Of a DNA stretch of 64,000 nucleotides, positions 13,855 to 57,819 are shown one piece after another. The translations under genes and the position numbers were made by a program. Origin of the DNA: Naegleria gruberi (Eukaryota); the NCBI GenBank assembly GCA_000004985.1, contig GG738876.1; one strand, given 5' to 3'. Below the pieces are notes generated by a model. The model worked only from the letters and a program-made list of their open reading frames with translations. It was not told the DNA's origin and made no database searches. Position 1 is the stretch's first letter. Each line of letters begins with the position of its first letter.

Positions 13855-15183
13855 ATGAATCATCTTAAACGATTGATTGTTTTGGCTCTTGTAGTTGTAC
13901 TCATGTTTGTCGTCTCACTTTCACATGCTCAAGACGAACAACAGGAAAACAACAATAAGAGACCACCAAGACCTTTACCTTCAGGTAGACCACCAAGACC
14001 ACATCCAGATCATTCTGGAGGGCGACCACCTCGCCCATTCCCATCTGGAGGAAGACCACCACGTCCAGATCATTCAGGAAGAAGACCAAGACCAGATCAT
14101 TCTGGTGAGAGACCACATCCACCAGGTCCACAACCAGATCATTCAGGAAGAAGACCACCAAGACCTGGTCCACATCCTGGTCAATCAGGATTACCACCAC
14201 GTTCTGATGAACAAGATGGTCAAAGTGAAAATAGACCTCGTCCACCAAGACCTCATCCAGAACGTTCAGGTGAAAGACCACATCCAAGACCTTTCCCATC
14301 TGGAGGTAGACCACCAAGACCAGACCACTCAGGAAGAAGACCAGGTCCACATCCAGATCATTCTGGAAGACCACCTCGTCCACATCCAAGACCAGAACCA
14401 TCTTCTGAAGATGACGAACACTCTGATAGACTTGAACAAGGAAACAGACCTCGTCCACCAAGACCAGATCGTTCAGGTTTGCCACCTCGTCCATTCCCAT
14501 CTGGAGGAAGACCACCAAGACCAGATCATTCAGGAAGAAGACCACATCCAAGACCTGAACACTCTGGTGAGAGACCACATCCAAGACCAGCTCACTCTGG
14601 TGAAAGACCACCAAGACCAGATCATTCAGGAAGAAGACCAAGACCAGGTCCACAACCAGACCAATCGGGAAGACCACCTCGTCCTTATCCAGAACATTCT
14701 GGTGAAAGACCAGGCCCACGTCCTCAACCACAAGAATCAACTTCATCCTTAATAGGTGAAAGACCACCAAGACCTGATAGATCTGGAAGACCACCTCGTC
14801 CATTCCCATCTGGAGGCAGACCACCAAGACCAGGCCCATCTGGAGGAAGACCAGGTCCTGGACCAGGTCCACAACCTGATGTTTCATCTGTTGAAGATCC
14901 ACTCATTGATGCTCAAAATAATACCAAGAATGAAATTCCAAATGGACCATCCAATGGTTCTGATGCTTTGGCCATTGTCTTTGGTGTTATTGGTGCAATT
15001 GTTGTCATGGCTGCTATTGCTCTTGTCATTGGAAGTGGAATTGCTGTTTTTGTTTTGAAGAAGAAGGGTTATTCACTCTCATTGAAGAAACATCAAATGT
15101 TGAGAGATGAAGACGAATTTGAATATCCACAACAAGACCAAACTCCAATTTACTCTGTCAATCAACCAGTTGCTCAAAATTAG
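13855..15183 (+). CDS. Pro/Arg/His-rich tandem-repeat type I membrane protein (extensin/mucin-like)
   Basis: Signal peptide MNHLKRLIVLALVVVLMFVVSLSHA; about 25 degenerate units of RPPRPDHSG(R/E)RP; C-terminal TM IVFGVIGAIVVMAAIALVIGSGIAVFVL and cytoplasmic tail. Antisense ORF 13901..14902 is a repeat artefact. Confidence 0.75.
   Translation: MNHLKRLIVLALVVVLMFVVSLSHAQDEQQENNNKRPPRPLPSGRPPRPHPDHSGGRPPRPFPSGGRPPRPDHSGRRPRPDHSGERPHPPGPQPDHSGRRPPRPGPHPGQSGLPPRSDEQDGQSENRPRPPRPHPERSGERPHPRPFPSGGRPPRPDHSGRRPGPHPDHSGRPPRPHPRPEPSSEDDEHSDRLEQGNRPRPPRPDRSGLPPRPFPSGGRPPRPDHSGRRPHPRPEHSGERPHPRPAHSGERPPRPDHSGRRPRPGPQPDQSGRPPRPYPEHSGERPGPRPQPQESTSSLIGERPPRPDRSGRPPRPFPSGGRPPRPGPSGGRPGPGPGPQPDVSSVEDPLIDAQNNTKNEIPNGPSNGSDALAIVFGVIGAIVVMAAIALVIGSGIAVFVLKKKGYSLSLKKHQMLRDEDEFEYPQQDQTPIYSVNQPVAQN
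13960..14880 (+). repeat. Coding tandem repeat array (27-36 nt units encoding RPPRPDHSGRRP)
   Basis: Recurring agaccaccaagaccagatcattcaggaagaagacca-like units are visible directly in the sequence. Confidence 0.8.
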
Positions 15184-28520: not shown

Positions 28521-29047
28521 TGTGATTGGTAAAGGATTGAATATTCTTGATCTCTGTTTCAATTTTCGTTCAAACTTGCACCTCATCTCCCATTTTCCTT
28601 GAAATTCAATTGTTCGGAGATGAGTGGGAGTTATTAATTGAAAATTCCGCAGTAGTAAGCACAATCTGTTCACAAGTCCATTACTTCTCCTCATGAAATC
28701 ATCAATTAATATTGAAAATTATTTGGATGTAGATATTGCAATTTCCTTCGTGTTCTCCATCTTTATTTCTCTGTGCATTATCAAAAACTACACACAGGTG
28801 CGCCCAATGATTGATCAATATTGAACCTTTTTTCATTCCTCCCACACGTGTGTGCTCCCTATCAATCATTAAGAGCATCAACATGATCCATTCAACAAAT
28901 GCAAGAGAGGCTCTCTTGAAAATTTTGGCGCGCAACTAAAATCTATGTGATTGTGTATTTGAGACTGATGGGAAGATGCTTTGAAAAAATATCTTTTTAA
29001 AATAATTTTAAATAAATTATTGTTGAAGAAAATTGATTCTAGAAAAA

Positions 29048-32017
29048 ATGTCTTCGTACGGAACGCACGGCGATGGTGGAGATGGGTTGGAATCGAGTAA
29101 ACAACTCAATGTGCTCCAAAAGATTGCTAGAAATAGAGTGGTGAATATTGTTGGTGCGATAATATTATCAATTATTTTATTATTGAGTATTGGATGTTGT
29201 GTTGTTGTTGGTGTGCTTCATTCACATTTGCTTTTCCAATGTGGATTTGCTGAATTTATATTTATGTTACTTCTTGAAGGCGCTACATTCTTCTTCTGTA
29301 TTTATCACTTGTACAATATTTACAAGTTTTTCAAGACTAGAGCACGACACTCTGGTAAGAAGGGAATTTCCGCTATTGTTGCTGCTTTATGTTCATCAGA
29401 AGTAAATCAATACAATGCATATTCTGATTCCAGACAAGGAAATGAAGAAGATGATTTTGATGATGAAGAAGATGATGAAGATGACGAAGAAGAGGAGGAA
29501 GAAGAAAGCAAATTTTCCAAGTTTGTTGTCGGCTTTTTGAAGATTGCTGCCAATGCTATTGCTGTTTTATGTTTCATCATTTTGGTACTTTTCACAGTTG
29601 TTGTCGTTCCATTGCAACAACAAACCTACCCAACTTATAACGGTACTCTTAAACTTCCAAAGTTTACACCAAAGGGATCTTCTGCTCCTACAATTTCACG
29701 TGAAAGTAATGGTGTTGTTCACATCAAGGCTTCACACGATTATGATTTATATTTCGCACAAGGTGTAGCTGTTGCTCAAGATCGTTTGTGGCAATTGGAA
29801 TTTAATCGTAGATTGTCAAATGGTATTTTGGCTGAAGTTGCTGGTGCTGATGCTGTCAATGTTGACAGTTGGTTCAGAACTCTCGGATTTGCTCGTTCTG
29901 CTGCCAACATTTTACCAACCATTGATGCTGAAACTCTTTCATTCATTCAAGCATATTGTGATGGTATTAACTCTTATATTAATAGTAATCCACCACTTCA
30001 ACCTGAATTTGTTCTCCTCAACACTAAACCAGTTGAATGGACTCCAAGTGATGTTATTGCTTATATGAAGTTTGTTTCATTCTCTCTTTCTGATAATATG
30101 GAAAAGGAAGTTTGGAGATTCAAGATGATGCAAAGAAATATCACAAAGGACAGAGTTAACGAATTGGTTCCTTTCTACCCAACTGATATGCCAACTATTT
30201 TGAGTTTGGAAGAAATGAATTTGCAAAACGTTCCAGTTGAAGAAAGAGAAAAGATTGAAAAGGCTCAACAAGATGATTCTGCTGCTTTTATTCCAAAGGC
30301 TATTCACAATTTGACCATGTCTGTCATGGAAGAAATGTTCGCTTCATTGGAAGAATCTGGTGAATGGGGTAAACAAGCTGTCAGATCAGTTTTGAAGGGT
30401 ATGGTTGCTCCAGATATCACTGGTAACAAGGCCTCAAACAATTGGGTTCTCGGAACCAAGATTACAGCAAACAATGGATCATTGTTGGCTAACGATCCTC
30501 ATTTGGATTTGACTGCTCCAGGTATTTGGTATTTGGCTCATTTGGAAGGTCCAACTCACAATGTTATTGGTTCTACTTTTGTTGGTCTTCCAGGTATTGT
30601 TATTGGTAAGAATGATTTCATTTCATGGGGTGTTACTACTGGTCTTGTTGATGCTCAAGATTTGTACGTCATGTCCGAAGTTGAAGAAGGTAAAACTTAC
30701 AACTACAATGGTAAAGTTCTCCAATATGAAACTCGTACCGAAACTATTAATGTTAAGGGAGCTGCTGCCAAGACTATTACTGTTAAGGAATCTGTCTACG
30801 GTCCAGTTATTAATGACCACTACCAAGTTGATGGTAACGTTTTGTGTTTGAAGTCTTTGACTACCTACACTAATGATACCACACTCCAAGCTTTCCTCAA
30901 GTTGAACAGAGAAGCTAAGGATTGGAACTCATTTGTTGATGTTGTCTCCTTGTTCGTTTCCCCATCCCAAAACTTTGTCTTTGCTGACAAGAGTGGTAAC
31001 ATTGGTTACTATTTGGCTGGTTTGGTTCCAATTAGAAAGGAAGGTCACAATGGTAGATTCCCAGTTATTGGTGATGGTAGCTATGATTGGCAAGGATTTA
31101 TTCCAGCTGCTGAAAAGCCAAGCGTTTACAATCCAAAGAAGGATTACATTGCTTCTGCAAACAACAGAGTTACTCCTGTTGGTTACAAGTACAGTATTAC
31201 CCAAGATTGGTACTCTTTCTATAGAGCTAGCAGAATTGTCTCATTGATTGAAACTGCTATTGAAAAGGGAACTCCACTCAATTTTGAATACATGAAGAAG
31301 ATGCAACACGACGTTCACTCACCAGTCTTTGATCAATTCAAGTTTGTTTTTGAAGCTATTCCAAAGTTCAGAAATCTCACTGAAAATAAGGAAAAGTTGA
31401 GAGAAAAGTTGATTAATTGGGACGGTGATGAAATTTTGTACTCTCAATCTGCTTCCATCTTTGAAATGTGGTACAAGATTATGGGTAACCTCACCAAGGT
31501 TGAAACTGTCAATAGATGGTCTTTCGGTCCATATCTTTACAATGCCTTGAAGAATGGTGATAGTGCTTGTGAAAATTATCACAACACTACTTGTATGTTG
31601 TTCGCTATTGACAGCTTTGAAAATGCCATTGATGCTCTTGAAGCCACTTACGGTTCTATTCCATTGTGGGGTTCTGATATTCACGAATCTGAATTCCCTA
31701 ACCCGGTAATGGATAATACTGTTCTCAAATGTTTGGCTGGAGCTACTCGTACTACTGTTGGTGGTTCTTCAACCATTAATGTTGGTGAAACTCAATATCC
31801 TGCCCTCAATTCAAGATGGGGTGTTTCTTATAGACAAGTTGTTGATTGGCGAGGCAATCAAGCTTCATTCATCATTCCACTCGGTCAATCTGGTAACTTC
31901 TTATCTCCTCTTTACACCAACTTGTTAGAAATGTGGTCTGACCCAACTGGTCAATACTTGGACATGAAATCTGCTGGTTACACTGCAACCAATACCCTTT
32001 CTCTTTCCTCTCAATAA
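29048..32017 (+). CDS. Membrane-anchored penicillin-amidase-family Ntn hydrolase (peptidase S45; AHL-acylase/aculeacin-acylase-like)
   Basis: N-terminal TM helices, poly-acidic linker EEDDFDDEEDDEDDEEEEEEE, further TM helix, then the full amidase domain. The beta-subunit N-terminal nucleophile context is GNKASNNWVLGTKITANNGSLLANDPHLDLTAPGIWYLAHL (compare E. coli PGA SNMWVIG...VNGPQFGW). ATG at 29048. Confidence 0.8.
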   Translation: MSSYGTHGDGGDGLESSKQLNVLQKIARNRVVNIVGAIILSIILLLSIGCCVVVGVLHSHLLFQCGFAEFIFMLLLEGATFFFCIYHLYNIYKFFKTRARHSGKKGISAIVAALCSSEVNQYNAYSDSRQGNEEDDFDDEEDDEDDEEEEEEESKFSKFVVGFLKIAANAIAVLCFIILVLFTVVVVPLQQQTYPTYNGTLKLPKFTPKGSSAPTISRESNGVVHIKASHDYDLYFAQGVAVAQDRLWQLEFNRRLSNGILAEVAGADAVNVDSWFRTLGFARSAANILPTIDAETLSFIQAYCDGINSYINSNPPLQPEFVLLNTKPVEWTPSDVIAYMKFVSFSLSDNMEKEVWRFKMMQRNITKDRVNELVPFYPTDMPTILSLEEMNLQNVPVEEREKIEKAQQDDSAAFIPKAIHNLTMSVMEEMFASLEESGEWGKQAVRSVLKGMVAPDITGNKASNNWVLGTKITANNGSLLANDPHLDLTAPGIWYLAHLEGPTHNVIGSTFVGLPGIVIGKNDFISWGVTTGLVDAQDLYVMSEVEEGKTYNYNGKVLQYETRTETINVKGAAAKTITVKESVYGPVINDHYQVDGNVLCLKSLTTYTNDTTLQAFLKLNREAKDWNSFVDVVSLFVSPSQNFVFADKSGNIGYYLAGLVPIRKEGHNGRFPVIGDGSYDWQGFIPAAEKPSVYNPKKDYIASANNRVTPVGYKYSITQDWYSFYRASRIVSLIETAIEKGTPLNFEYMKKMQHDVHSPVFDQFKFVFEAIPKFRNLTENKEKLREKLINWDGDEILYSQSASIFEMWYKIMGNLTKVETVNRWSFGPYLYNALKNGDSACENYHNTTCMLFAIDSFENAIDALEATYGSIPLWGSDIHESEFPNPVMDNTVLKCLAGATRTTVGGSSTINVGETQYPALNSRWGVSYRQVVDWRGNQASFIIPLGQSGNFLSPLYTNLLEMWSDPTGQYLDMKSAGYTATNTLSLSSQ

Positions 32018-32195
32018 TTTAAAGTCATTATTAAATAAATAATCTAGTTTGTATATATTTACTGTTGTTGTTAATATGAAAGAAGCGTTTCTGTGGCGAA
32101 ATTCAACATCTTCAACTGGATTCACTGAGGTTTGATCATTGTCACTTTTCAATATCTTCCTGAAAAGGGCACAAACTAAAGTTGAAAAAAACAAA

Positions 32196-33590
32196 ATGAC
32201 CAATGCCAGTTCTTCCACAACACGAACAACAAGTGCAAGCTACAGACAGCAAAAATTGAAAAGTAAACAAATAGATAATCAACTGTACGGAAATTTATCA
32301 GCACAACTTGTCTCCACCAACAACAATCAGCTCCAACTTGAACAATTACAAAAAACAACGAGACCTCTTCGAATATTATTGATGGGACCAAGAAATTGCG
32401 GAATTAAAACCTTTCTAATGAATGCTCTTGATATGGAAGCTGATGATTTCATGATTCGAACCATGTTATCAATGTCTCATAGAGTGAATCAAATTTCGAA
32501 TAGTAATCTTGCTGGACTTGATGATACAGAACTTACACGTCCATTGACTTTTCAACAAAAGGCAGAGGGTCTCTTTTCAGAGAAGAATAGAAATCTGACG
32601 CTCAATGTGTACATGTATATTTGTAGAGGAATCAAAGTTTTTGTAAAATGGGAATGGAAATATTTTGAAAGATTGAAGAGGAAAATTCATGAAAATTATG
32701 AACATCATCATTATCATGAGGAACATTTTGATTTGGTTTATAATTGGGAAGGTGACGAAGATGGTAAATTATTGGATGAGTTGATAAATGATTGTCGAGA
32801 GCAGAAACAATTGAATTCCAAAATTATTTCAATTTATTCCAAAATTGTGAATTATGGAAAAAAGGAAGTAATGAACGAATTTTACAATTCATTATTAAGA
32901 TCGACAAATATTAGATATTTGGATAATATTCAATAGTATGTTTGTCATAAGTTCAAATTTCATTCAAAAAATTTCAGTTTTTTCACACTTGATGCTTTCA
33001 ATAGAATTACTTCCAATGATTACAAGCCACTCAACCAAGATTTGCTCAAATCTCATCATCCAGACGATAAGGGAATTATTTCAATTCGGAGGGATGAGTT
33101 TGAATTTATTGACATTACAGGTCAATTGAATGAAAGAAGAAAGTGGATTCATCAATTTTCCAACTCTATTGATGTTATAATGTTCTTCATTCCAATTTCA
33201 GATTACAATCTAATCAATCCACTGACTGGAATGAATAGACTTGATGAGGCTTTTCATTTATACAATGAAATTCAAACAACGAAACTTTTTGAGAGAGCTG
33301 ACATTTCAATCATGTTAACAAAAATGGATTTGTTTAAAAAGAAACTAGTTTTGGATCCAATTTCGAATTATTTTGAAAAGTTTCAAGCGTCGAATGGAAA
33401 TTTAAAAGAAACTATGGAAGTGATGAGAGGAATATTTAGTCAAAATTTTGGGGAAGATTCGAATTATAGGAGACTGTTTGTGCATCAGGTTGATTTGACT
33501 GATGTGAATGATTTTAAAGTGGTTTATAGAGGAATTTCCAGTTCTCTTCGATTGGGAACTTTCATTTCAATTTTTGCTAGAAGGAGATGA
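32196..33590 (+). CDS. Divergent G-protein alpha-subunit-like protein with degenerate P-loop; 2 exons
   Basis: Exon 1 32196..32935 and exon 2 32978..33590, joined by a 42-nt intron (GTATGT...TTTCAG). The splice yields ...YFFTLDAFNRITSNDYKPLNQDLL...ISIRRDEFEFIDITGQLNERRKWIHQF, colinear with G-alpha YFL.DLDRI..P.Y.PT.QD.L..R..T.GI.E..F...DVGGQRSERKKWIHCF. NKXD is TKMD and the P-loop is GPRNCGIKT instead of GAGESGKST. Confidence 0.75.
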
Positions 33591-33613
33591 AACCTTTCGA
33601 ATAATTTACAATT

Positions 33614-35056
33614 TTATTGAGAATTTTGATGTTTCATAACCAAACCATGAATCTTTTTAACTCTCATTTCCTTGAGGAATTCCATCGAAAGTTTGAACCT
33701 GTAATGAGAATCCAACATTACAATTTCAATTTCCTTCTCCAAGAAATCAAACAAATCGTCTGGAAGCGACGAAATTTGACGATTCTTATACAATTCAATT
33801 TGAAACAAAACATCATGTGTGGACTTCTTATCAATATTTACAGATTTAGGGCCATTAACATTCAGGAATTCTTCATATATTTCCTGAGCTAATTGGAATT
33901 TCTTTGCTTCAACAACTTCTAATTCAGTTTCGAGTTCTTGAGTAGTTGAAAGATTTTTCTTTCTCTTGGTTGTTGGTTGACCAACACTGAGAGAAGTATT
34001 GGATTTGGAAGACTGATCAACAACAGAGATGGTGGAAGGAGTTGCGTTATTGGAAACTTCAGATAATTCGAAAGAAACGCTACCTAAACTATTAGAACTT
34101 TCAGTTTCTTCACTCAATGTTTGAACCAATTCAATTTGATATTCACACAATCGCTTGTACTGCTGAACTTTTTCAAGGAATTCAAAGTTTTCAGAGTTAA
34201 ATTCCTTCTTACAATGATTCTTAAAGAGATTTCTCAATCTGTCATTATTCATGGTGTGTGAAATGTCAACTGCTAGTGCTTCTCTTAATTTTTGAACATT
34301 GTTGGAGTCTGATCTAATAGCCAACCCAAAAACAAAGATAATGACTGGAACTGTAACTACAACTGCCAAGCAAATAATTGATAATGAAGTTATGGACATA
34401 GCATTAGTGATTTTTGACACTTGTTCTTGAGAAGCAAGTACATAATCAAGTACAACATCTTGTGCAGTTCTAAAAGTGTTTCTTCTTGCGATATAAGTGG
34501 CGGAAGTAAGCAATCGAACAGCTTCCGTAAAGTTTCCATCTCTAATATTCGAAACAGCTTGAGAATCAGTATCAGTCAAATAATTAACAATTCCCTGCAA
34601 ATTATTTCTATACTGCTGCGAAATACTCTGAGGTATCTTTTGAAGCATATTTTCAGTCAACTCATCATTCACTTTCGAATAATTATTATAATAAGCCAAA
34701 TATCCCTCATTTCCCGAATAGGCAGCCACCAACGTATAAGCTTGAATATAGGCAGTATACGTAGATACCTTCGCTCTAGTAGCCAACAAATCAATATCCT
34801 CATTCATCTGACTATTTTCACTATAAATCAGCAAACCAAGGAGAATGAGGAAAGTAATGGTATTGAGGACCATGGCAACCATTGCAAAGATTTTAATGAA
34901 ATTCAATTCGAGTTTGAAGAAACAGCAGTGGACTGTGAAGGTTTTTGGCTGTTTTTGATGTTTACGAAAGGAATCGTCGAGAGAGGATTGCTGGCGTTTG
35001 AGAGGAGGTGAAGATTCAATGCTTGTTTCGATTGGTTTCTTTGTTTCGTTTTCCAT
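33614..35056 (-). CDS. RGS-domain protein with two TM helices flanking a roughly 150-aa ectodomain (sensor-like topology)
   Basis: RGS motifs FKNHCKKEFNSENFEFLEKVQQYK, AQEIYEEFLNVNGPKSVNID and FDFLEKEIEIVMLDSHYRFKLS, with an S/T-rich insert. N-terminal TM FIKIFAMVAMVLNTITFLILLGLLIY and second TM ITSLSIICLAVVVTVPVIIFVFGLAI lie upstream of the RGS domain. Confidence 0.8.
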   Translation of the reverse strand: MENETKKPIETSIESSPPLKRQQSSLDDSFRKHQKQPKTFTVHCCFFKLELNFIKIFAMVAMVLNTITFLILLGLLIYSENSQMNEDIDLLATRAKVSTYTAYIQAYTLVAAYSGNEGYLAYYNNYSKVNDELTENMLQKIPQSISQQYRNNLQGIVNYLTDTDSQAVSNIRDGNFTEAVRLLTSATYIARRNTFRTAQDVVLDYVLASQEQVSKITNAMSITSLSIICLAVVVTVPVIIFVFGLAIRSDSNNVQKLREALAVDISHTMNNDRLRNLFKNHCKKEFNSENFEFLEKVQQYKRLCEYQIELVQTLSEETESSNSLGSVSFELSEVSNNATPSTISVVDQSSKSNTSLSVGQPTTKRKKNLSTTQELETELEVVEAKKFQLAQEIYEEFLNVNGPKSVNIDKKSTHDVLFQIELYKNRQISSLPDDLFDFLEKEIEIVMLDSHYRFKLSMEFLKEMRVKKIHGLVMKHQNSQ

Positions 35057-35980: not shown

Positions 35981-36970
35981 ATGCAAAATCATACTTCACA
36001 AGTACAGGGTGATTCTTTCTCATTGCCACCTTCTTCATCACCACCACCACCACCACAAGAAGTCTCTACACAACAGCAAACATCGTACTATTCATGGAGT
36101 CCAACTAGTCTTTCAGAAGCTGCCAAACAACAGCAAACAGAGTATTACAGTGGAGGTTCTCCAAGCTATTCACCAACTTCACCGAGCTATTCACCAACTA
36201 CACCCGTCTATGCTCCAACTTCACCAGCATATTCACCAACTTATACTCCAACCTCTCCTTGTTATTCTTATACCTCTCCATATTATAGTACGATTTTTTA
36301 TCTTCCGAGAGAGACAGTGCTGAGTTTTGATTTGGATCAAAGTGTATTGGAAAGGATTGAGAAGGAAACAAGAAATTGGGGAGTGTTGAGGTGGAGAAAT
36401 CCAGAGTTGGGTGAAAGATTTTGGGGACATGTTTATATGAGTGTTGATTCAAAGATTGTGGAAATTATTAGAGAACATTATGGACCGAAGGGATTAATTA
36501 CTAAAGTTAGGGAATTGTTGGGAGAGGTAGGAGAATCGCACTCTACGGTTGAGTATAATGCATTCTTGTTGCCAACACATTTTACTGTAATTGGGAGTAA
36601 GGAGTGGCAACAGGCATTCTTGGGATTGGAGAAGGAGGTTGAGTATTTTACAGTTAAAAATCCTGCAGAAAATGTATTCGAAAGTTCAATTGAGTTTGTG
36701 AATAGTCCATATAAGAGTTATTCAAAATTGTTTAAGGAAGAGAAAATTCAGGAATTGTGCAATTTTACCTATTTTACAAGATCTGGATTTGCAAATTCAC
36801 TTCCCAACGAAATTGTATCCCACATTAAACAATTTCTAATCATTGATCTGAAAGAAAGTGGACGAAAGGTTAAATTCTCAATCACTGGCCAAATTAGTTT
36901 AGTTCCAAGACAGTTTGGAGAAAAGCTTGGTTTCATTCTCCATGTCGATTGTCCAGAAATGAATAATTGA
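35981..36970 (+). CDS. Hypothetical protein with RNA-Pol-II-CTD-like YSPTSPS heptad repeats followed by an unknown globular domain
   Basis: The segment [44 protein letters not shown] (about 36140-36290) is followed by a well-conserved-looking, non-repetitive roughly 220-aa region. Confidence 0.55.
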
Positions 36971-37238
36971 GAGAGAATACGGATTCCAAAGTATGGACTA
37001 TTCCATTCCTTTAGGACTTGATTGGCGTGATTACAAGTATCCTCAATTACCAAAAAAGGTAGTTATTAAGAATTTTTCAAAGAAGAGAACTCGTGACACA
37101 TTTGAAGAATGCAATATTAAATAAAATCTAAAAGCTTTTTAATAATCCATTTTGGTGGAAAACAAAGCAGTATTATTGGAAACTATTTAGAATATTGATG
37201 ATAAATAACACTTGAATAGCAATTTGTAATATTTGAGT

Positions 37239-38048
37239 TTATTCGAAATTTAGATCATCATAACATTCCACAAATTCATCAGAATACCAAAGTGCTCTGA
37301 GAAGAATCTTTCTTGGAAGATTCATCATTTCAGCTTCTTTCAACATTTCCTCAACAATTTGATTCAATTCCAATAGAAATTCTCCCATTCTGTCATAGAG
37401 TGAAGAATTGACTGATAACTCCTCAAGATGATTGGATGCTCTGTTCCAAGCAACTACAGCCTTGTTGAATAATTCATCTTCTTCTCCTACTAAACTGGAA
37501 TAGGTCTGAATAACTTCACTATATTTGTCAAGAACTGATCTTTTGGCCAACTTGAAACTTCCTTTTCTGTTGATGGAATCAATTAATTGGACCAGTTTAG
37601 TTCTGTTTTGTTGAGAATGTTCTGCTGGAGAGTTCAAAACACATTCACAATAATCAATCATAAGTTGGTCAACTGGAAATTCTGGAAGTGGATGCTCTAC
37701 AAAATTGTTGATTTGTTTGTAAACTTGATTTTGTAAAGTGATGAGGGAATAATCTTTTGGAAATAGCTCTTCACTCAAGTCATTTAACATGATGAAATTC
37801 TTTCTCTTCTTTCTACTACTTTCGAATGGTTTAAAAGAAACCTTTGCATTTGGAAAGAGTAATCTAAATGCAAAAGAAATGCTTCCACACACGAAAGGAT
37901 GAGATTCAGGAGAGTGAATCAAATTAATCTGATTAATCTTGGATGGAATCTCCTGCAATGCATATTTAGCAATGTGAAATAATTTGAAACAACTTTCAGA
38001 AATGGTCAACTCTTCACAATTTGGAAACATTTTAGCAATTTGCTTCAT
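37239..38048 (-). CDS. Hypothetical protein (269 aa), possibly the C-terminal part of the upstream F-box/LRR gene
   Basis: ORF starts within ATGA, which overlaps the stop of ORF 38045..38905; the frame is +1 relative to that ORF. Confidence 0.4.
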   Translation of the reverse strand: MKQIAKMFPNCEELTISESCFKLFHIAKYALQEIPSKINQINLIHSPESHPFVCGSISFAFRLLFPNAKVSFKPFESSRKKRKNFIMLNDLSEELFPKDYSLITLQNQVYKQINNFVEHPLPEFPVDQLMIDYCECVLNSPAEHSQQNRTKLVQLIDSINRKGSFKLAKRSVLDKYSEVIQTYSSLVGEEDELFNKAVVAWNRASNHLEELSVNSSLYDRMGEFLLELNQIVEEMLKEAEMMNLPRKILLRALWYSDEFVECYDDLNFE

Positions 38049-38905
38049 TCTAACCCCTTGTCCTTGAAATCAAAATCAAAGTCACCAACTGACAATTTCT
38101 TGACACTTGGCAGTATCTTGTCAACTGAACCAAGGTAATCAACTTTCAAGGTACATGGATTGGAATGTACATGTTCAATAGATGGTACACTGATACTTTC
38201 CATATTTTTGGCACAAGGTGGTACTTTGAAATTTTGTTTTTGGTTGAGGAATTTGACATTTCTGAGATTTCCAATACTTGCTTGAACTAATTTACAATCT
38301 TCTTCAGAAATTGGAGAGTTAAAGACGAGTTTTCTATATTGGGATGATTTCATATCCAAGAATTGAACGATCGAATTGAATGGATTGTGTTCTCTTTGGT
38401 AAACATTCTTAAATGAGATGGATGATAAGGTTGGGGTAATTCTGACAGGTTGTCTCTTTGGCAGTTGACTTGTGTCACATTGGCTATTGCTGAAATGCAA
38501 TTTTCTTAAATTGCAATCATGTGGATTGAGAATGGAGAGTAAAATTCTTGGATTAATTTCACATCCTTCAAATTCGAGTTCTGTAAAACGATTGATAAGT
38601 GACACATGCTTTTCCTTCAGCTGATCAACACCTGACAGTATCAGCTTGGCATCCATTGCAAATTTCTTCAATCCCAAATAATTTCCAACACATTCAATAT
38701 CTTTAACTGTACAACAAGTCAATTCTTCCCTTTCTCTCAACATTTTCCTAATATAGGATTGTTGAGAAGTAATTCCATCACATGCTCGATGACACAAACC
38801 AACCATTCTTCTCAACATGATCAAAATTGCATCATTTGGAATGAAACTCAATATTTGACATGCAATTTCTGGAACGAATAGAATAGAATAATTAATAGAA
38901 TGCAT
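38045..38905 (-). CDS. F-box / leucine-rich-repeat-like protein
   Basis: N-terminal F-box-like VPEIACQILSFIPNDAILIMLRRM followed by LRR-like L..L..L.. segments. Confidence 0.45.
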   Translation of the reverse strand: MHSINYSILFVPEIACQILSFIPNDAILIMLRRMVGLCHRACDGITSQQSYIRKMLREREELTCCTVKDIECVGNYLGLKKFAMDAKLILSGVDQLKEKHVSLINRFTELEFEGCEINPRILLSILNPHDCNLRKLHFSNSQCDTSQLPKRQPVRITPTLSSISFKNVYQREHNPFNSIVQFLDMKSSQYRKLVFNSPISEEDCKLVQASIGNLRNVKFLNQKQNFKVPPCAKNMESISVPSIEHVHSNPCTLKVDYLGSVDKILPSVKKLSVGDFDFDFKDKGLE

Positions 38906-51077: not shown

Positions 51078-51150
51078 CGCCCCACGTGGGGCTCGAACCC
51101 ACGACCGTTGGATTAAAAGTCCAACGCTCTACCGACTGAGCTAGCGGGGC
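51078..51150 (-). tRNA. tRNA-Lys (anticodon UUU), intronless
   Basis: Minus-strand read GCCCCGCTAGCTCAGTCGGTAGAGCGTTGGACTTTTAATCCAACGGTCGTGGGTTCGAGCCCCACGTGGGGCG. It has a 7-bp acceptor stem with one G-U pair, D-loop AGTCGGTAGA, anticodon loop CTTTTAA and T-loop GGTTCGAGCC. Confidence 0.9.
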
Positions 51151-57746: not shown

Positions 57747-57819
57747 TGGAGATGCGGGGTATCGATCCCCGTACCTCTTCCATGCTAAAGAAGCGCTCTA
57801 CCATGTGAGCTACATCCCC
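57747..57819 (-). tRNA. tRNA-Ala (anticodon AGC), intronless, with G3:U70 identity pair
   Basis: Minus-strand read GGGGATGTAGCTCACATGGTAGAGCGCTTCTTTAGCATGGAAGAGGTACGGGGATCGATACCCCGCATCTCCA. Acceptor GGGGATG/CATCTCC gives G3-T70; anticodon loop TTAGCAT. Confidence 0.9.

What the first reader, a model, noticed from the sequence alone, without database searches (positions are those of the whole stretch)
35981..36970. Non-polymerase protein carrying RNA-Pol-II CTD-like YSPTSPS heptads
Residues about 55-105 read [43 protein letters not shown]. This is a near-consensus run of CTD heptads. It is fused to an unrelated, apparently globular C-terminal region of about 220 aa (...[25 protein letters not shown]...). 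Such a protein could act as a CTD mimic or decoy for CTD kinases, phosphatases or capping enzymes, or be the product of exon capture from RPB1.
Basis: seen in the sequence. Interest (0 to 1): 0.55.

Follow-up and report, generated by a model that had tools for sequence, protein, structure and literature searches.

The report
Pol-II-tail heptads on an amoeba enzyme
A small protein family found only in Naegleria-type amoebae carries, in front of a probable RNA-end-processing (2H phosphoesterase-like) domain, a conserved short copy of the YSPTSPS repeat otherwise known as the tail of RNA polymerase II; this looks like a built-in 'polymerase-tail mimic' not previously described.

Summary
Window 35981-36970 (+) is a 329-aa Naegleria gruberi 'predicted protein' whose residues 56-104 form about seven YSPTSPS-type heptads. 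Lag-7 autocorrelation is 25 against 7.7±2.4 (0 of 100,000 shuffles). The tract alone passes Pfam's Rpb1 CTD-repeat cut-off (25.1 vs 20.3 bits).

It is not a chance low-complexity tract. Searches of 1.8-5.8 billion proteins found ten relatives, all Heterolobosea (N. gruberi x2, N. lovaniensis, N. fowleri, Willaertia magna x3) or environmental. Nine of the ten carry 1-7 such heptads directly N-terminal to the same ~240-aa domain. Y1, P3 and P6 are nearly invariant, position 7 is free, and conserved residues often use different synonymous codons.

Best reading: a CTD-mimic tag that docks a nuclear RNA-end-processing enzyme onto CTD readers, writers or Pol II hubs. This is inferred, not shown. Recent exon capture from RPB1 is not supported.

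The window copy carries a 1-nt frameshift at 36968. The family-conserved C-terminal strand and a KKRTR cluster continue in the +1 frame to 37124. Published work says N. gruberi Rpb1 lacks heptad repeats; I could not verify that.

The parts
35981..36970 (+). Annotated ORF, 329 aa; N. gruberi 'predicted protein' (P0001, 100% identical)
35981..36145 (+). N-terminal Q/S/P-rich extension (aa 1-55, includes SSSPPPPP and YYSWSPTS); not conserved in the family apart from a similar start (MQNHTSQ vs MNQTSSS in L001)
36146..36292 (+). CTD-type heptad array, aa 56-104: [48 protein letters not shown]
   Evidence: periodicity statistics; Pfam PF05001 25.1 bits against cut-off 20.3
36164..36242 (+). 21-nt DNA tandem repeat (3.8 copies, 80% matches) underlying the four most regular heptads; a signature of local expansion
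   Evidence: 32-aa length difference from paralog P0002 at this site
36293..36967 (+). In-frame part of the conserved 2H-phosphoesterase-like domain (aa 105-329)
36422..36445 (+). Motif A, WGHVYMSV (predicted beta-strand; His conserved in 9 of 10 members, Asn in heptad-less P0008)
36572..36592 (+). Motif B, PTHFTVI; an H-x-[TS]-x motif of 2H type, invariant in all 10 members
   Evidence: (P0008 residues 104-127 match 2H-SAK profile positions 24-50)
36935..36952 (+). Motif C, ILHVDC (predicted beta-strand; His present in 8 of the 9 members that reach this region, Pro in P0008; the L001 contig ends before it)
36965..36970 (+). Frameshift site AAT|TGA. Skipping T36968 restores ...PEMNN-EREYGF..., collinear with paralog ...PEMNELRMKYGF...
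36969..37124 (+). Family-conserved C-terminal helix and strand ([17 protein letters not shown]) and tail, encoded in the +1 frame; stop TAA at 37122-37124
   Evidence: tblastn to P0002 tail, E=2.9e-14, 58% identity; ELRxKYGF...G conserved in all full-length members; predicted helix and strand in the model
37080..37094 (+). Basic cluster KKRTR in the +1-frame tail; a candidate nuclear localisation signal. Similar clusters (KKRK, RKRK, KRLKR) occur in 6 other members
   Evidence: the NLS reading is an inference from the classical K-K/R-x-K/R consensus

Best explanation
The gene belongs to a small, fast-evolving, Heterolobosea-specific family. Each member has (i) a disordered N-terminal tag of 1-7 RNA-polymerase-II-CTD-type heptads (consensus Y-S-P-T-S-P-x), (ii) a ~240-aa divergent 2H-phosphoesterase-like domain of the 'Swiss Army Knife' (SAK) type with conserved His-containing strands, and (iii) a C-terminal tail that usually has a basic NLS-like cluster. 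Proposed mechanism: the protein is nuclear, and the heptad tag behaves like a short piece of Pol II CTD. CTD kinases would phosphorylate it, CTD readers (CID, WW or capping-enzyme-type domains) would bind it, or it would co-partition with CTD-rich transcription hubs. This would bring the 2H-like domain to sites of transcription and RNA processing. There it would act on RNA ends (2',3'-cyclic phosphate or 3'-end trimming, as other 2H enzymes such as USB1 or CPDase do) or bind them. Shown here: the heptads, their periodicity, their family-wide conservation under purifying selection, the position of the tag, the disorder of the tag in the model, the weak but concordant 2H/SAK similarity, and the conserved His motifs. 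Inferred: nuclear location, recognition by CTD machinery, and any catalytic activity or substrate. The window copy itself has a 1-nt frameshift that removes the last conserved helix, strand and basic cluster. It is either a sequencing error or a very recent disabling mutation.
Confidence: 0.4

Rival explanations
1. Convergent Tyr/Ser/Pro-rich disordered region with a role unrelated to CTD machinery. Examples would be a generic proline-directed-kinase phospho-switch, a degron, a flexible spacer, or a self-association or condensation tract. On this reading the resemblance to YSPTSPS reflects the same physico-chemical solution (SP turns plus Tyr) rather than shared partners.
For: Copy number is very labile at 0-7. 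Several arrays are degenerate (P0009 YEPTSPI-YYHP-YSPAYTP; P0005 YLPSSPP-YGPPHSP), and three short tracts do not hit PF05001. The C-terminal tails also carry scattered YSP/YxP motifs. Rpb1 of N. gruberi is reported to lack repeats, which weakens the need for canonical-heptad readers.
Against: Conservation is position-specific and follows the CTD consensus Y-S-P-T-S-P-x, with Y1, P3 and P6 nearly invariant and position 7 free. Exact YSPTSPS units occur in window, L001 and P0007, and YSPTSP in N. fowleri. Three tracts pass the curated Rpb1-repeat threshold. A generic linker would not hold a 7-residue register under saturated synonymous divergence.
Confidence: 0.27
2. Decoy or sponge: the tag competes with Pol II CTD for kinases, phosphatases or capping enzyme and so titrates them, while the C-terminal domain is incidental.
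For: Canonical heptads are by definition potential substrates and ligands. The window and L001 copies have about 7 units.
Against: One to three heptads, as in most members, would be a poor competitor. The tag is always joined to the same conserved domain with invariant motifs, and tag loss goes together with loss of two conserved His residues in P0008. This argues that the tag serves the domain.
Confidence: 0.06
3. Intramolecular regulation: the heptad tag, phosphorylated or not, folds back onto the 2H-like domain as a pseudo-substrate or autoinhibitory element. Alternatively, the domain is itself a reader of the tag.
For: The tag always abuts the first strand of the domain with almost no linker. 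Sen1's CTD mimic was reported to take part in intramolecular interactions (PMC7110113). Loss of the tag and loss of two conserved His residues coincide in P0008.
Against: No known 2H domain binds peptides. Nothing in the model shows the N-terminus docked; it has pLDDT<50.
Confidence: 0.1
4. Recent capture of RPB1 CTD-coding DNA (exon shuffling or retro-insertion) into an unrelated gene.
For: The heptads are near-consensus and the DNA is tandemly repeated.
Against: Heptads are present at the same position in Naegleria spp., Willaertia and environmental relatives with 25-55% domain identity. Orthologous heptads differ at most synonymous sites. The paralog has a short array at the same site, which indicates in-situ expansion or contraction. 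N. gruberi Rpb1 is reported to have no repeats. An ancient capture at the origin of the family cannot be excluded.
Confidence: 0.03
5. The window copy is a decaying pseudogene, so its long array has no present function. This bears on this copy only, not on the family.
For: A 1-nt frameshift removes a family-conserved helix, strand and basic cluster. Its closest environmental relative, L001, carries an in-frame TGA.
Against: The remaining 329 + 51 codons are intact. The +1-frame tail has no stop over 51 codons (P about 0.05 by chance) and is 58% identical to the paralog. The array keeps its register. A single-base error in the draft assembly or the metagenome contig is an equally simple explanation. 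Independent reads could not be consulted.
Confidence: 0.25

Closest known systems
RNA polymerase II Rpb1 C-terminal domain (Pfam PF05001 heptad repeat)
   Same: Same heptad consensus Y-S-P-T-S-P-x with 7-residue register. Y1, P3 and P6 are nearly invariant and position 7 is free. The tract passes the curated Pfam repeat threshold and is disordered.
   Different: It is not on a polymerase, and no RNA-polymerase domains are present. It is N-terminal rather than C-terminal. It has only 1-7 units, against the 26 in yeast and 52 in mammals stated in PMC6548728. It is attached to a 2H-like domain.
CTD mimics of yeast Trf4, Mpp6 and Sen1 (Nrd1-interaction motifs, NIMs)
   Same: Both are a short disordered segment on an RNA-metabolism protein that resembles the CTD. 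In yeast such a segment is bound by a CTD-interaction domain to hand RNA-processing factors onto the transcription machinery (PMC7110113, PMC4186968).
   Different: NIMs are single ~12-residue motifs in which an acidic run stands in for the phosphates, followed by Tyr. They are not canonical or tandem heptads and are confined to close relatives of S. cerevisiae. Here the units are canonical, tandem, presumably phosphorylation-dependent, and there is no acidic run.
2H phosphoesterase superfamily, 'Swiss Army Knife' subgroup (Pfam PF22547 2H-SAK); structural relatives USB1, CPDase/LigT, CNPase, Acb1
   Different: The window protein itself does not match the model. A canonical second HxT motif is present in only 2 of 10 members. 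There is a ~70-residue partly disordered helical insertion. Fold scores are weak and shared with hot-dog folds. From the Pfam names only (my recollection, not checked here), SAK proteins are multidomain predicted RNA-repair proteins with HAD or PTP domains, whereas here the partner is a CTD-type tag.
Non-polymerase substrates of CTD kinases with CTD-like sites (e.g. human CDK12-dependent phosphosites)
   Same: This shows that CTD kinases can act on CTD-resembling sequences outside Rpb1 (PMC6844070).
   Different: Those are isolated sites in otherwise unrelated proteins, not conserved tandem heptad arrays.

Membership tests
Rpb1 CTD heptad repeat (PF05001) | Tandem heptads matching YSPTSPS with 7-residue period | tested here: met
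   Lag-7 autocorrelation 25 against 7.7±2.4, 0 of 100,000 shuffles. PF05001 scores 25.1 bits against cut-off 20.3 on the isolated tract.
Rpb1 CTD heptad repeat (PF05001) | Located at the C-terminus of the largest RNA polymerase II subunit | tested here: not met
   No polymerase domain by Pfam. The tract is N-terminal to a 2H-like domain. The protein is therefore not an Rpb1.
Rpb1 CTD heptad repeat (PF05001) | Phosphorylated by CTD kinases and bound by CTD readers | not testable with these tools
   Needs phosphoproteomics, kinase assays and pull-downs.
CTD mimic (NIM type: Trf4, Mpp6, Sen1) | Lies in an intrinsically disordered, accessible region | tested here: met
   The N-terminal 34 residues of paralog P0002 have pLDDT<50 and no secondary structure. 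The window tract is low-complexity.
CTD mimic (NIM type: Trf4, Mpp6, Sen1) | Acidic stretch followed by Tyr and a hydrophobic or beta-turn segment (phospho-independent mimicry) | tested here: not met
   No acidic run precedes the heptads in any member. The units are canonical heptads. NIM features are as listed in PMC7110113.
CTD mimic (NIM type: Trf4, Mpp6, Sen1) | Binds a CTD-interaction domain; nuclear | not testable with these tools
   Only an NLS-like basic cluster in the tails of 7 members, which is an inference.
2H phosphoesterase, SAK subgroup (PF22547) | Sequence match to the family model above the curated cut-off | tested here: inconclusive
   Window protein: no hit. P0007 30.4 bits (cut-off 27). 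P0009 23.7, P0008 17.8, P0005 16.4 and P0002 13.5 bits.
2H phosphoesterase, SAK subgroup (PF22547) | Two H-x-[TS]-x motifs | tested here: inconclusive
   One canonical motif (PTHFTVI) is invariant. A second canonical one (FHYTIG) is found only in P0007 and P0009, and the window has SIPLG there. Two further conserved His strands (WGHVY, ILHVD) could substitute. The N-half against C-half profile comparison was not significant.
2H phosphoesterase, SAK subgroup (PF22547) | Bilobed alpha+beta 2H fold | tested here: inconclusive
2H phosphoesterase, SAK subgroup (PF22547) | Hydrolysis of 2',3'-cyclic or 2',5' phosphodiester bonds | not testable with these tools
   Needs an enzyme assay.

The most novel reading that the evidence does not exclude
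In Heterolobosea, whose own Rpb1 tail is reported to lack heptad repeats, the canonical CTD heptad and its code survive on a separate protein family. That would make this a 'CTD in trans': a free-standing landing pad that couples CTD readers and writers to an RNA-end-processing enzyme. It would imply that the heptad-reading machinery has clients other than Pol II, and that a canonical heptad can be maintained by selection independently of the polymerase.
Probability: 0.12. Interest if true: 0.85.

Novelty: new variant of a known kind. Interest (0 to 1): 0.6.

Why it matters
The YSPTSPS heptad is treated as the signature of RNA polymerase II. The known 'CTD mimics' retrieved here are single, non-canonical motifs. 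A protein family that has kept canonical tandem heptads under purifying selection across genera, on a non-polymerase enzyme-like scaffold, would be a natural experiment on what the heptad does by itself. It could address which kinases, phosphatases, isomerases and readers recognise it, and how few repeats suffice (1-7 here). It could also show whether the CTD code can address other proteins. The question is sharper if Naegleria's own Rpb1 lacks repeats, as one paper reports. The family also includes a protein of the pathogen N. fowleri with no relatives outside Heterolobosea. Finally, it adds a new domain partner to the poorly characterised SAK-type 2H phosphoesterases.

Tried and rejected
1. 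I suspected TGA read-through in frame 0, but frame 0 has several stops after 36970. The conserved tail is in the +1 frame.
2. AlphaFold with a 3-sequence alignment failed (pLDDT 37). It was repeated with 8 sequences, giving pLDDT 66 and pTM 0.63.
3. Sequence search of the PDB with the family profile gave nothing at E<=10. NCBIfam gave nothing meaningful. Foldseek against the PDB was not significant. The afdb50 library was unavailable.
4. A JGI metagenome scan with the family alignment found no relatives.
5. Internal-duplication test by hhalign, motif-A half against motif-C half: probability 1.3% and the His residues did not align. It is uninformative about the catalytic pair.
6. Checking the frameshift in independent assemblies failed, because P0001 and P0002 are not on record in the gene-position index.
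7. Selection test with the two environmental contigs L001 and L005: their heptad DNA is identical, so it is uninformative. I used window/L001 and N. fowleri/N. lovaniensis instead.
8. Synteny: L001, the N. fowleri locus and the N. lovaniensis locus share no neighbours with the window. The window's neighbours are functionally unrelated.
9. N. gruberi RPB1 could not be retrieved with the available tools. Yang & Stiller 2014 and the paper I recalled as the SAK source (Burroughs & Aravind 2016) were not held.
10. An extensin-like or cell-wall reading (SSSPPPPP plus Tyr-rich repeats) was rejected. By eye there is no N-terminal hydrophobic signal sequence in any member, and most tails have NLS-like clusters.
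11. An antizyme-like programmed +1 frameshift at AAU-UGA-G was considered only as a curiosity, since the paralog has no frameshift there.

Full report
**1.

- Window 35981-36970 (+) is an uninterrupted ATG-to-TGA ORF of 329 aa.
- It is 100% identical to a 'predicted protein' of Naegleria gruberi.
- The window looks like a gene-dense eukaryotic genome: 33% GC, a tRNA-Ala(AGC), and RGS, G-alpha, F-box and WH2 neighbours.
- Residues 56-104 parse as YSGGSPS / YSPTSPS / YSPTTPV / YAPTSPA / YSPT / YTPTSPC / YSYTSPY / YS.
- Lag-7 autocorrelation is 25 against 7.7±2.4 in shuffles of the same 49 residues (0 of 100,000 reach it). Thirty of 49 residues match YSPTSPS in register, against a shuffle maximum of 25.
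- The DNA shows a 21-nt tandem repeat of 3.8 copies at 36164-36242.
- Scanned alone, the tract passes Pfam's curated threshold for the Rpb1 C-terminal repeat (PF05001, 25.1 against 20.3 bits). In the whole protein the hit is not reported.
- No other Y[STA]Px[ST]P occurs in any frame of the 64-kb window.

**2. It is a family feature, not a chance tract**

I ran four searches:
- the C-terminal domain against 5.8 billion clusters;
- an exhaustive HMMER profile search of 1.84 billion representatives;
- a profile search;
- a search with the N. lovaniensis member.

Together they found ten relatives in total:
- N. gruberi P0001 (this gene) and its paralog P0002 (78% identity);
- N. lovaniensis P0005 and N. 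fowleri P0010;
- Willaertia magna P0007, P0008 and P0009;
- three environmental sequences (L001/P0003, P0006 and P0004).

No relative was found outside Heterolobosea. Nine of the ten begin with CTD-type heptads placed directly before the first strand of the domain:

| Member | N-terminal heptads |
|---|---|
| L001 | [49 protein letters not shown] |
| P0004 | YSPTFPY YSPTSPR YTPTSPN |
| P0005 | YSPTTPY YLPSSPP YGPPHSP |
| P0007 | [17 protein letters not shown] |
| P0009 | YEPTSPI ... YSPAYTP VSPSYPP |
| P0002 | TPS-YSPSSPA YAPS |
| N. fowleri P0010 | MSCF-YSPTSPY-Y |

For L001 the gene caller had missed the heptads, but they lie in frame upstream of the called start.

Over 26 heptads the counts are Y1 25, S2 17, P3 24, T4 15, S5 18 (+4 T) and P6 23, with position 7 free. 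That is the CTD consensus.

The conservation is at the peptide level:
- Between window and L001, 17 of 21 aligned heptad residues are identical, but 10 of those use different synonymous codons.
- Between N. fowleri and N. lovaniensis, the shared YSPT(S/T)PYY carries five synonymous changes and one conservative change in eight codons.

That criterion is not met.

**3. Origin**

The paralog P0002 aligns through the tract and is 32 residues shorter at exactly this site. Together with the 21-nt DNA repeat, this indicates in-situ expansion or contraction of an ancestral short array. Copy number ranges from 0 to 7 across the family. The tag predates the Naegleria/Willaertia split and its synonymous sites are diverged, so recent capture of RPB1 DNA is not supported. 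An ancient capture cannot be excluded.

**4. The globular domain**

- Pfam finds nothing in the window protein.
- Five relatives hit PF22547 ('Swiss Army Knife, 2H phosphoesterase domain'). P0007 is above the curated cut-off (30.4 against 27 bits, E=5e-7) and P0009 has E=6e-5.
- An 8-sequence AlphaFold model of the intact paralog reached pTM 0.63, with the core mostly at pLDDT 70-94 and the tag and extreme C-terminus disordered.
- Foldseek against the PDB is not significant.
- Against viral models the top hit is a 'Swiss Army Knife 2H phosphoesterase domain-containing protein' (prob 0.85). A multidomain phosphatase of Bodo saltans virus and further 2H enzymes follow.
- Three His-bearing predicted strands are conserved:

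| Motif | Sequence in the window | Conservation |
|---|---|---|
| A | WGHVY | His in 9 of 10 |
| B | PTHFTVI, a canonical H-x-T-x | all 10 |
| C | ILHVD | His in 8 of the 9 members that reach it |

- A second canonical HxT (FHYTIG) exists only in the two Willaertia paralogs that score best against 2H-SAK.
- P0008, the one member without heptads, has also lost the His of motifs A and C.

I conclude with moderate confidence that the domain is a divergent 2H-like fold. Whether most members are active, and which His residues form the catalytic pair, is open. A profile test for internal symmetry was not significant.

**5. The gene model is broken**

The family-wide C-terminal element ELRxKYGF...F...G forms a predicted helix and final strand. 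In the window it is encoded after the TGA in the +1 frame. Skipping T36968 gives ...[22 protein letters not shown]...KKRTRDTFEECNIK*, ending at 37124. This matches the paralog tail at E=2.9e-14 and 58% identity.

The annotated product would lack this strand and the KKRTR cluster. This is either a single-base error or a very recent frameshift. I could not consult independent reads. The nearest relative, L001, has an in-frame TGA with homology continuing beyond it. I therefore give about 25% to real decay of this ortholog group.

**6. How it most likely works**

Basic clusters (KKRTR, KKRK, RKRK, KRLKR) in seven tails suggest a nuclear protein (inference). In six of the ten members the tag contains at least one YxPxxPxYxP pair. 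This is the form of the yeast minimal functional CTD unit, [11 protein letters not shown] (PMC6548728).

Yeast provides a precedent. Disordered CTD mimics on Trf4, Mpp6 and Sen1 are bound by the Nrd1 CID and coordinate RNA processing with transcription (PMC7110113 and PMC4186968). CTD kinases also act on CTD-like sites outside Rpb1 (PMC6844070).

I therefore favour a targeting tag. CTD kinases, CTD readers or CTD-rich hubs would recognise the heptads and so place the 2H-like domain near nascent or small RNAs. I put this at about 0.4.

Rivals:
- convergent disordered phospho-region, 0.27;
- intramolecular regulation, 0.10;
- decoy, 0.06;
- recent RPB1 capture, 0.03.

**7. What is known, and novelty**

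The protein is not an Rpb1, because a defining feature fails. It is not a NIM-type mimic, because it has no acidic run and its units are canonical and tandem. It is only a tentative member of the 2H-SAK group.

Within the held literature I found no description of tandem canonical heptads conserved in a non-Rpb1 family. The search was by phrase and is not exhaustive.

One paper states that the N. gruberi Rpb1 C-terminal extension is Ser/Pro-rich but 'lacks repeat structure' (PMC3646058). I could not verify this. If true, it makes the conserved canonical heptads on another protein considerably more surprising.

**Verdict:** a real, conserved feature. It is a new variant of known kinds (CTD mimicry and 2H/SAK proteins), its function is untested, and I score its interest at 0.6.

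Noticed in passing
window 36965-37124: A 1-nt frameshift (extra T at 36968) truncates the annotated ORF. The family-conserved C-terminal helix, strand and KKRTR cluster continue in the +1 frame to a TAA at 37122-37124. The site AAU-UGA-G formally resembles antizyme-type +1 sites, but the paralog has no shift there.
   Followed up: partly
L001 1855-1857: The closest environmental relative has an in-frame TGA, aligned to a Lys of the window protein, with homology continuing after it. The gene caller had also missed its heptad-bearing N-terminus. The contig end reads ...GRASCRERV, which looks like an assembly or adaptor artefact.
   Followed up: partly
window 29033-32017: A 994-aa ORF gives a very strong penicillin-amidase match (PF01804, E=9e-180) in a eukaryotic genome. 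It coincides with a local GC rise (0.388 against ~0.33), so it is a candidate bacterial horizontal transfer.
   Followed up: no
window 32139-35056: A G-alpha gene lies convergent with, and 24 bp from, a gene for a protein with a hydrophobic N-terminal segment and an RGS domain (33614-35056, minus strand). The G-alpha C-terminal half is at 33042-33590; the upstream ORF 32139-32936 is probably its 5' exon. A G protein and a potential regulator are thus immediate neighbours.
   Followed up: no
window 37239-38905 (minus strand): Two ORFs of 269 and 286 aa overlap by 4 nt (ATGA) and have no Pfam match. They may be two tightly packed genes or one gene split by another frameshift.
   Followed up: no
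window 13855-15183: GC jumps to 0.41, and long ORFs overlap on both strands and in two frames (13855-15183 +, 13895-14752 +, 13901-14902 -). This suggests a low-complexity or repeat-rich coding region.
   Followed up: no
C-terminal tails of P0004, P0005, P0007, P0009 and P0010: Besides the N-terminal tag, several members carry isolated YSP/YxP motifs after the domain: HYPSYSYTPSFTP, CRYSPC, GVYSPRYDPFY and CYSPYYS. The domain is therefore flanked on both sides by CTD-like elements.
   Followed up: partly
window 51078-51150 and 57747-57819 (minus strand): tRNA-Lys(TTT) and tRNA-Ala(AGC) genes. The AGC anticodon fits a eukaryotic genome.
   Followed up: no
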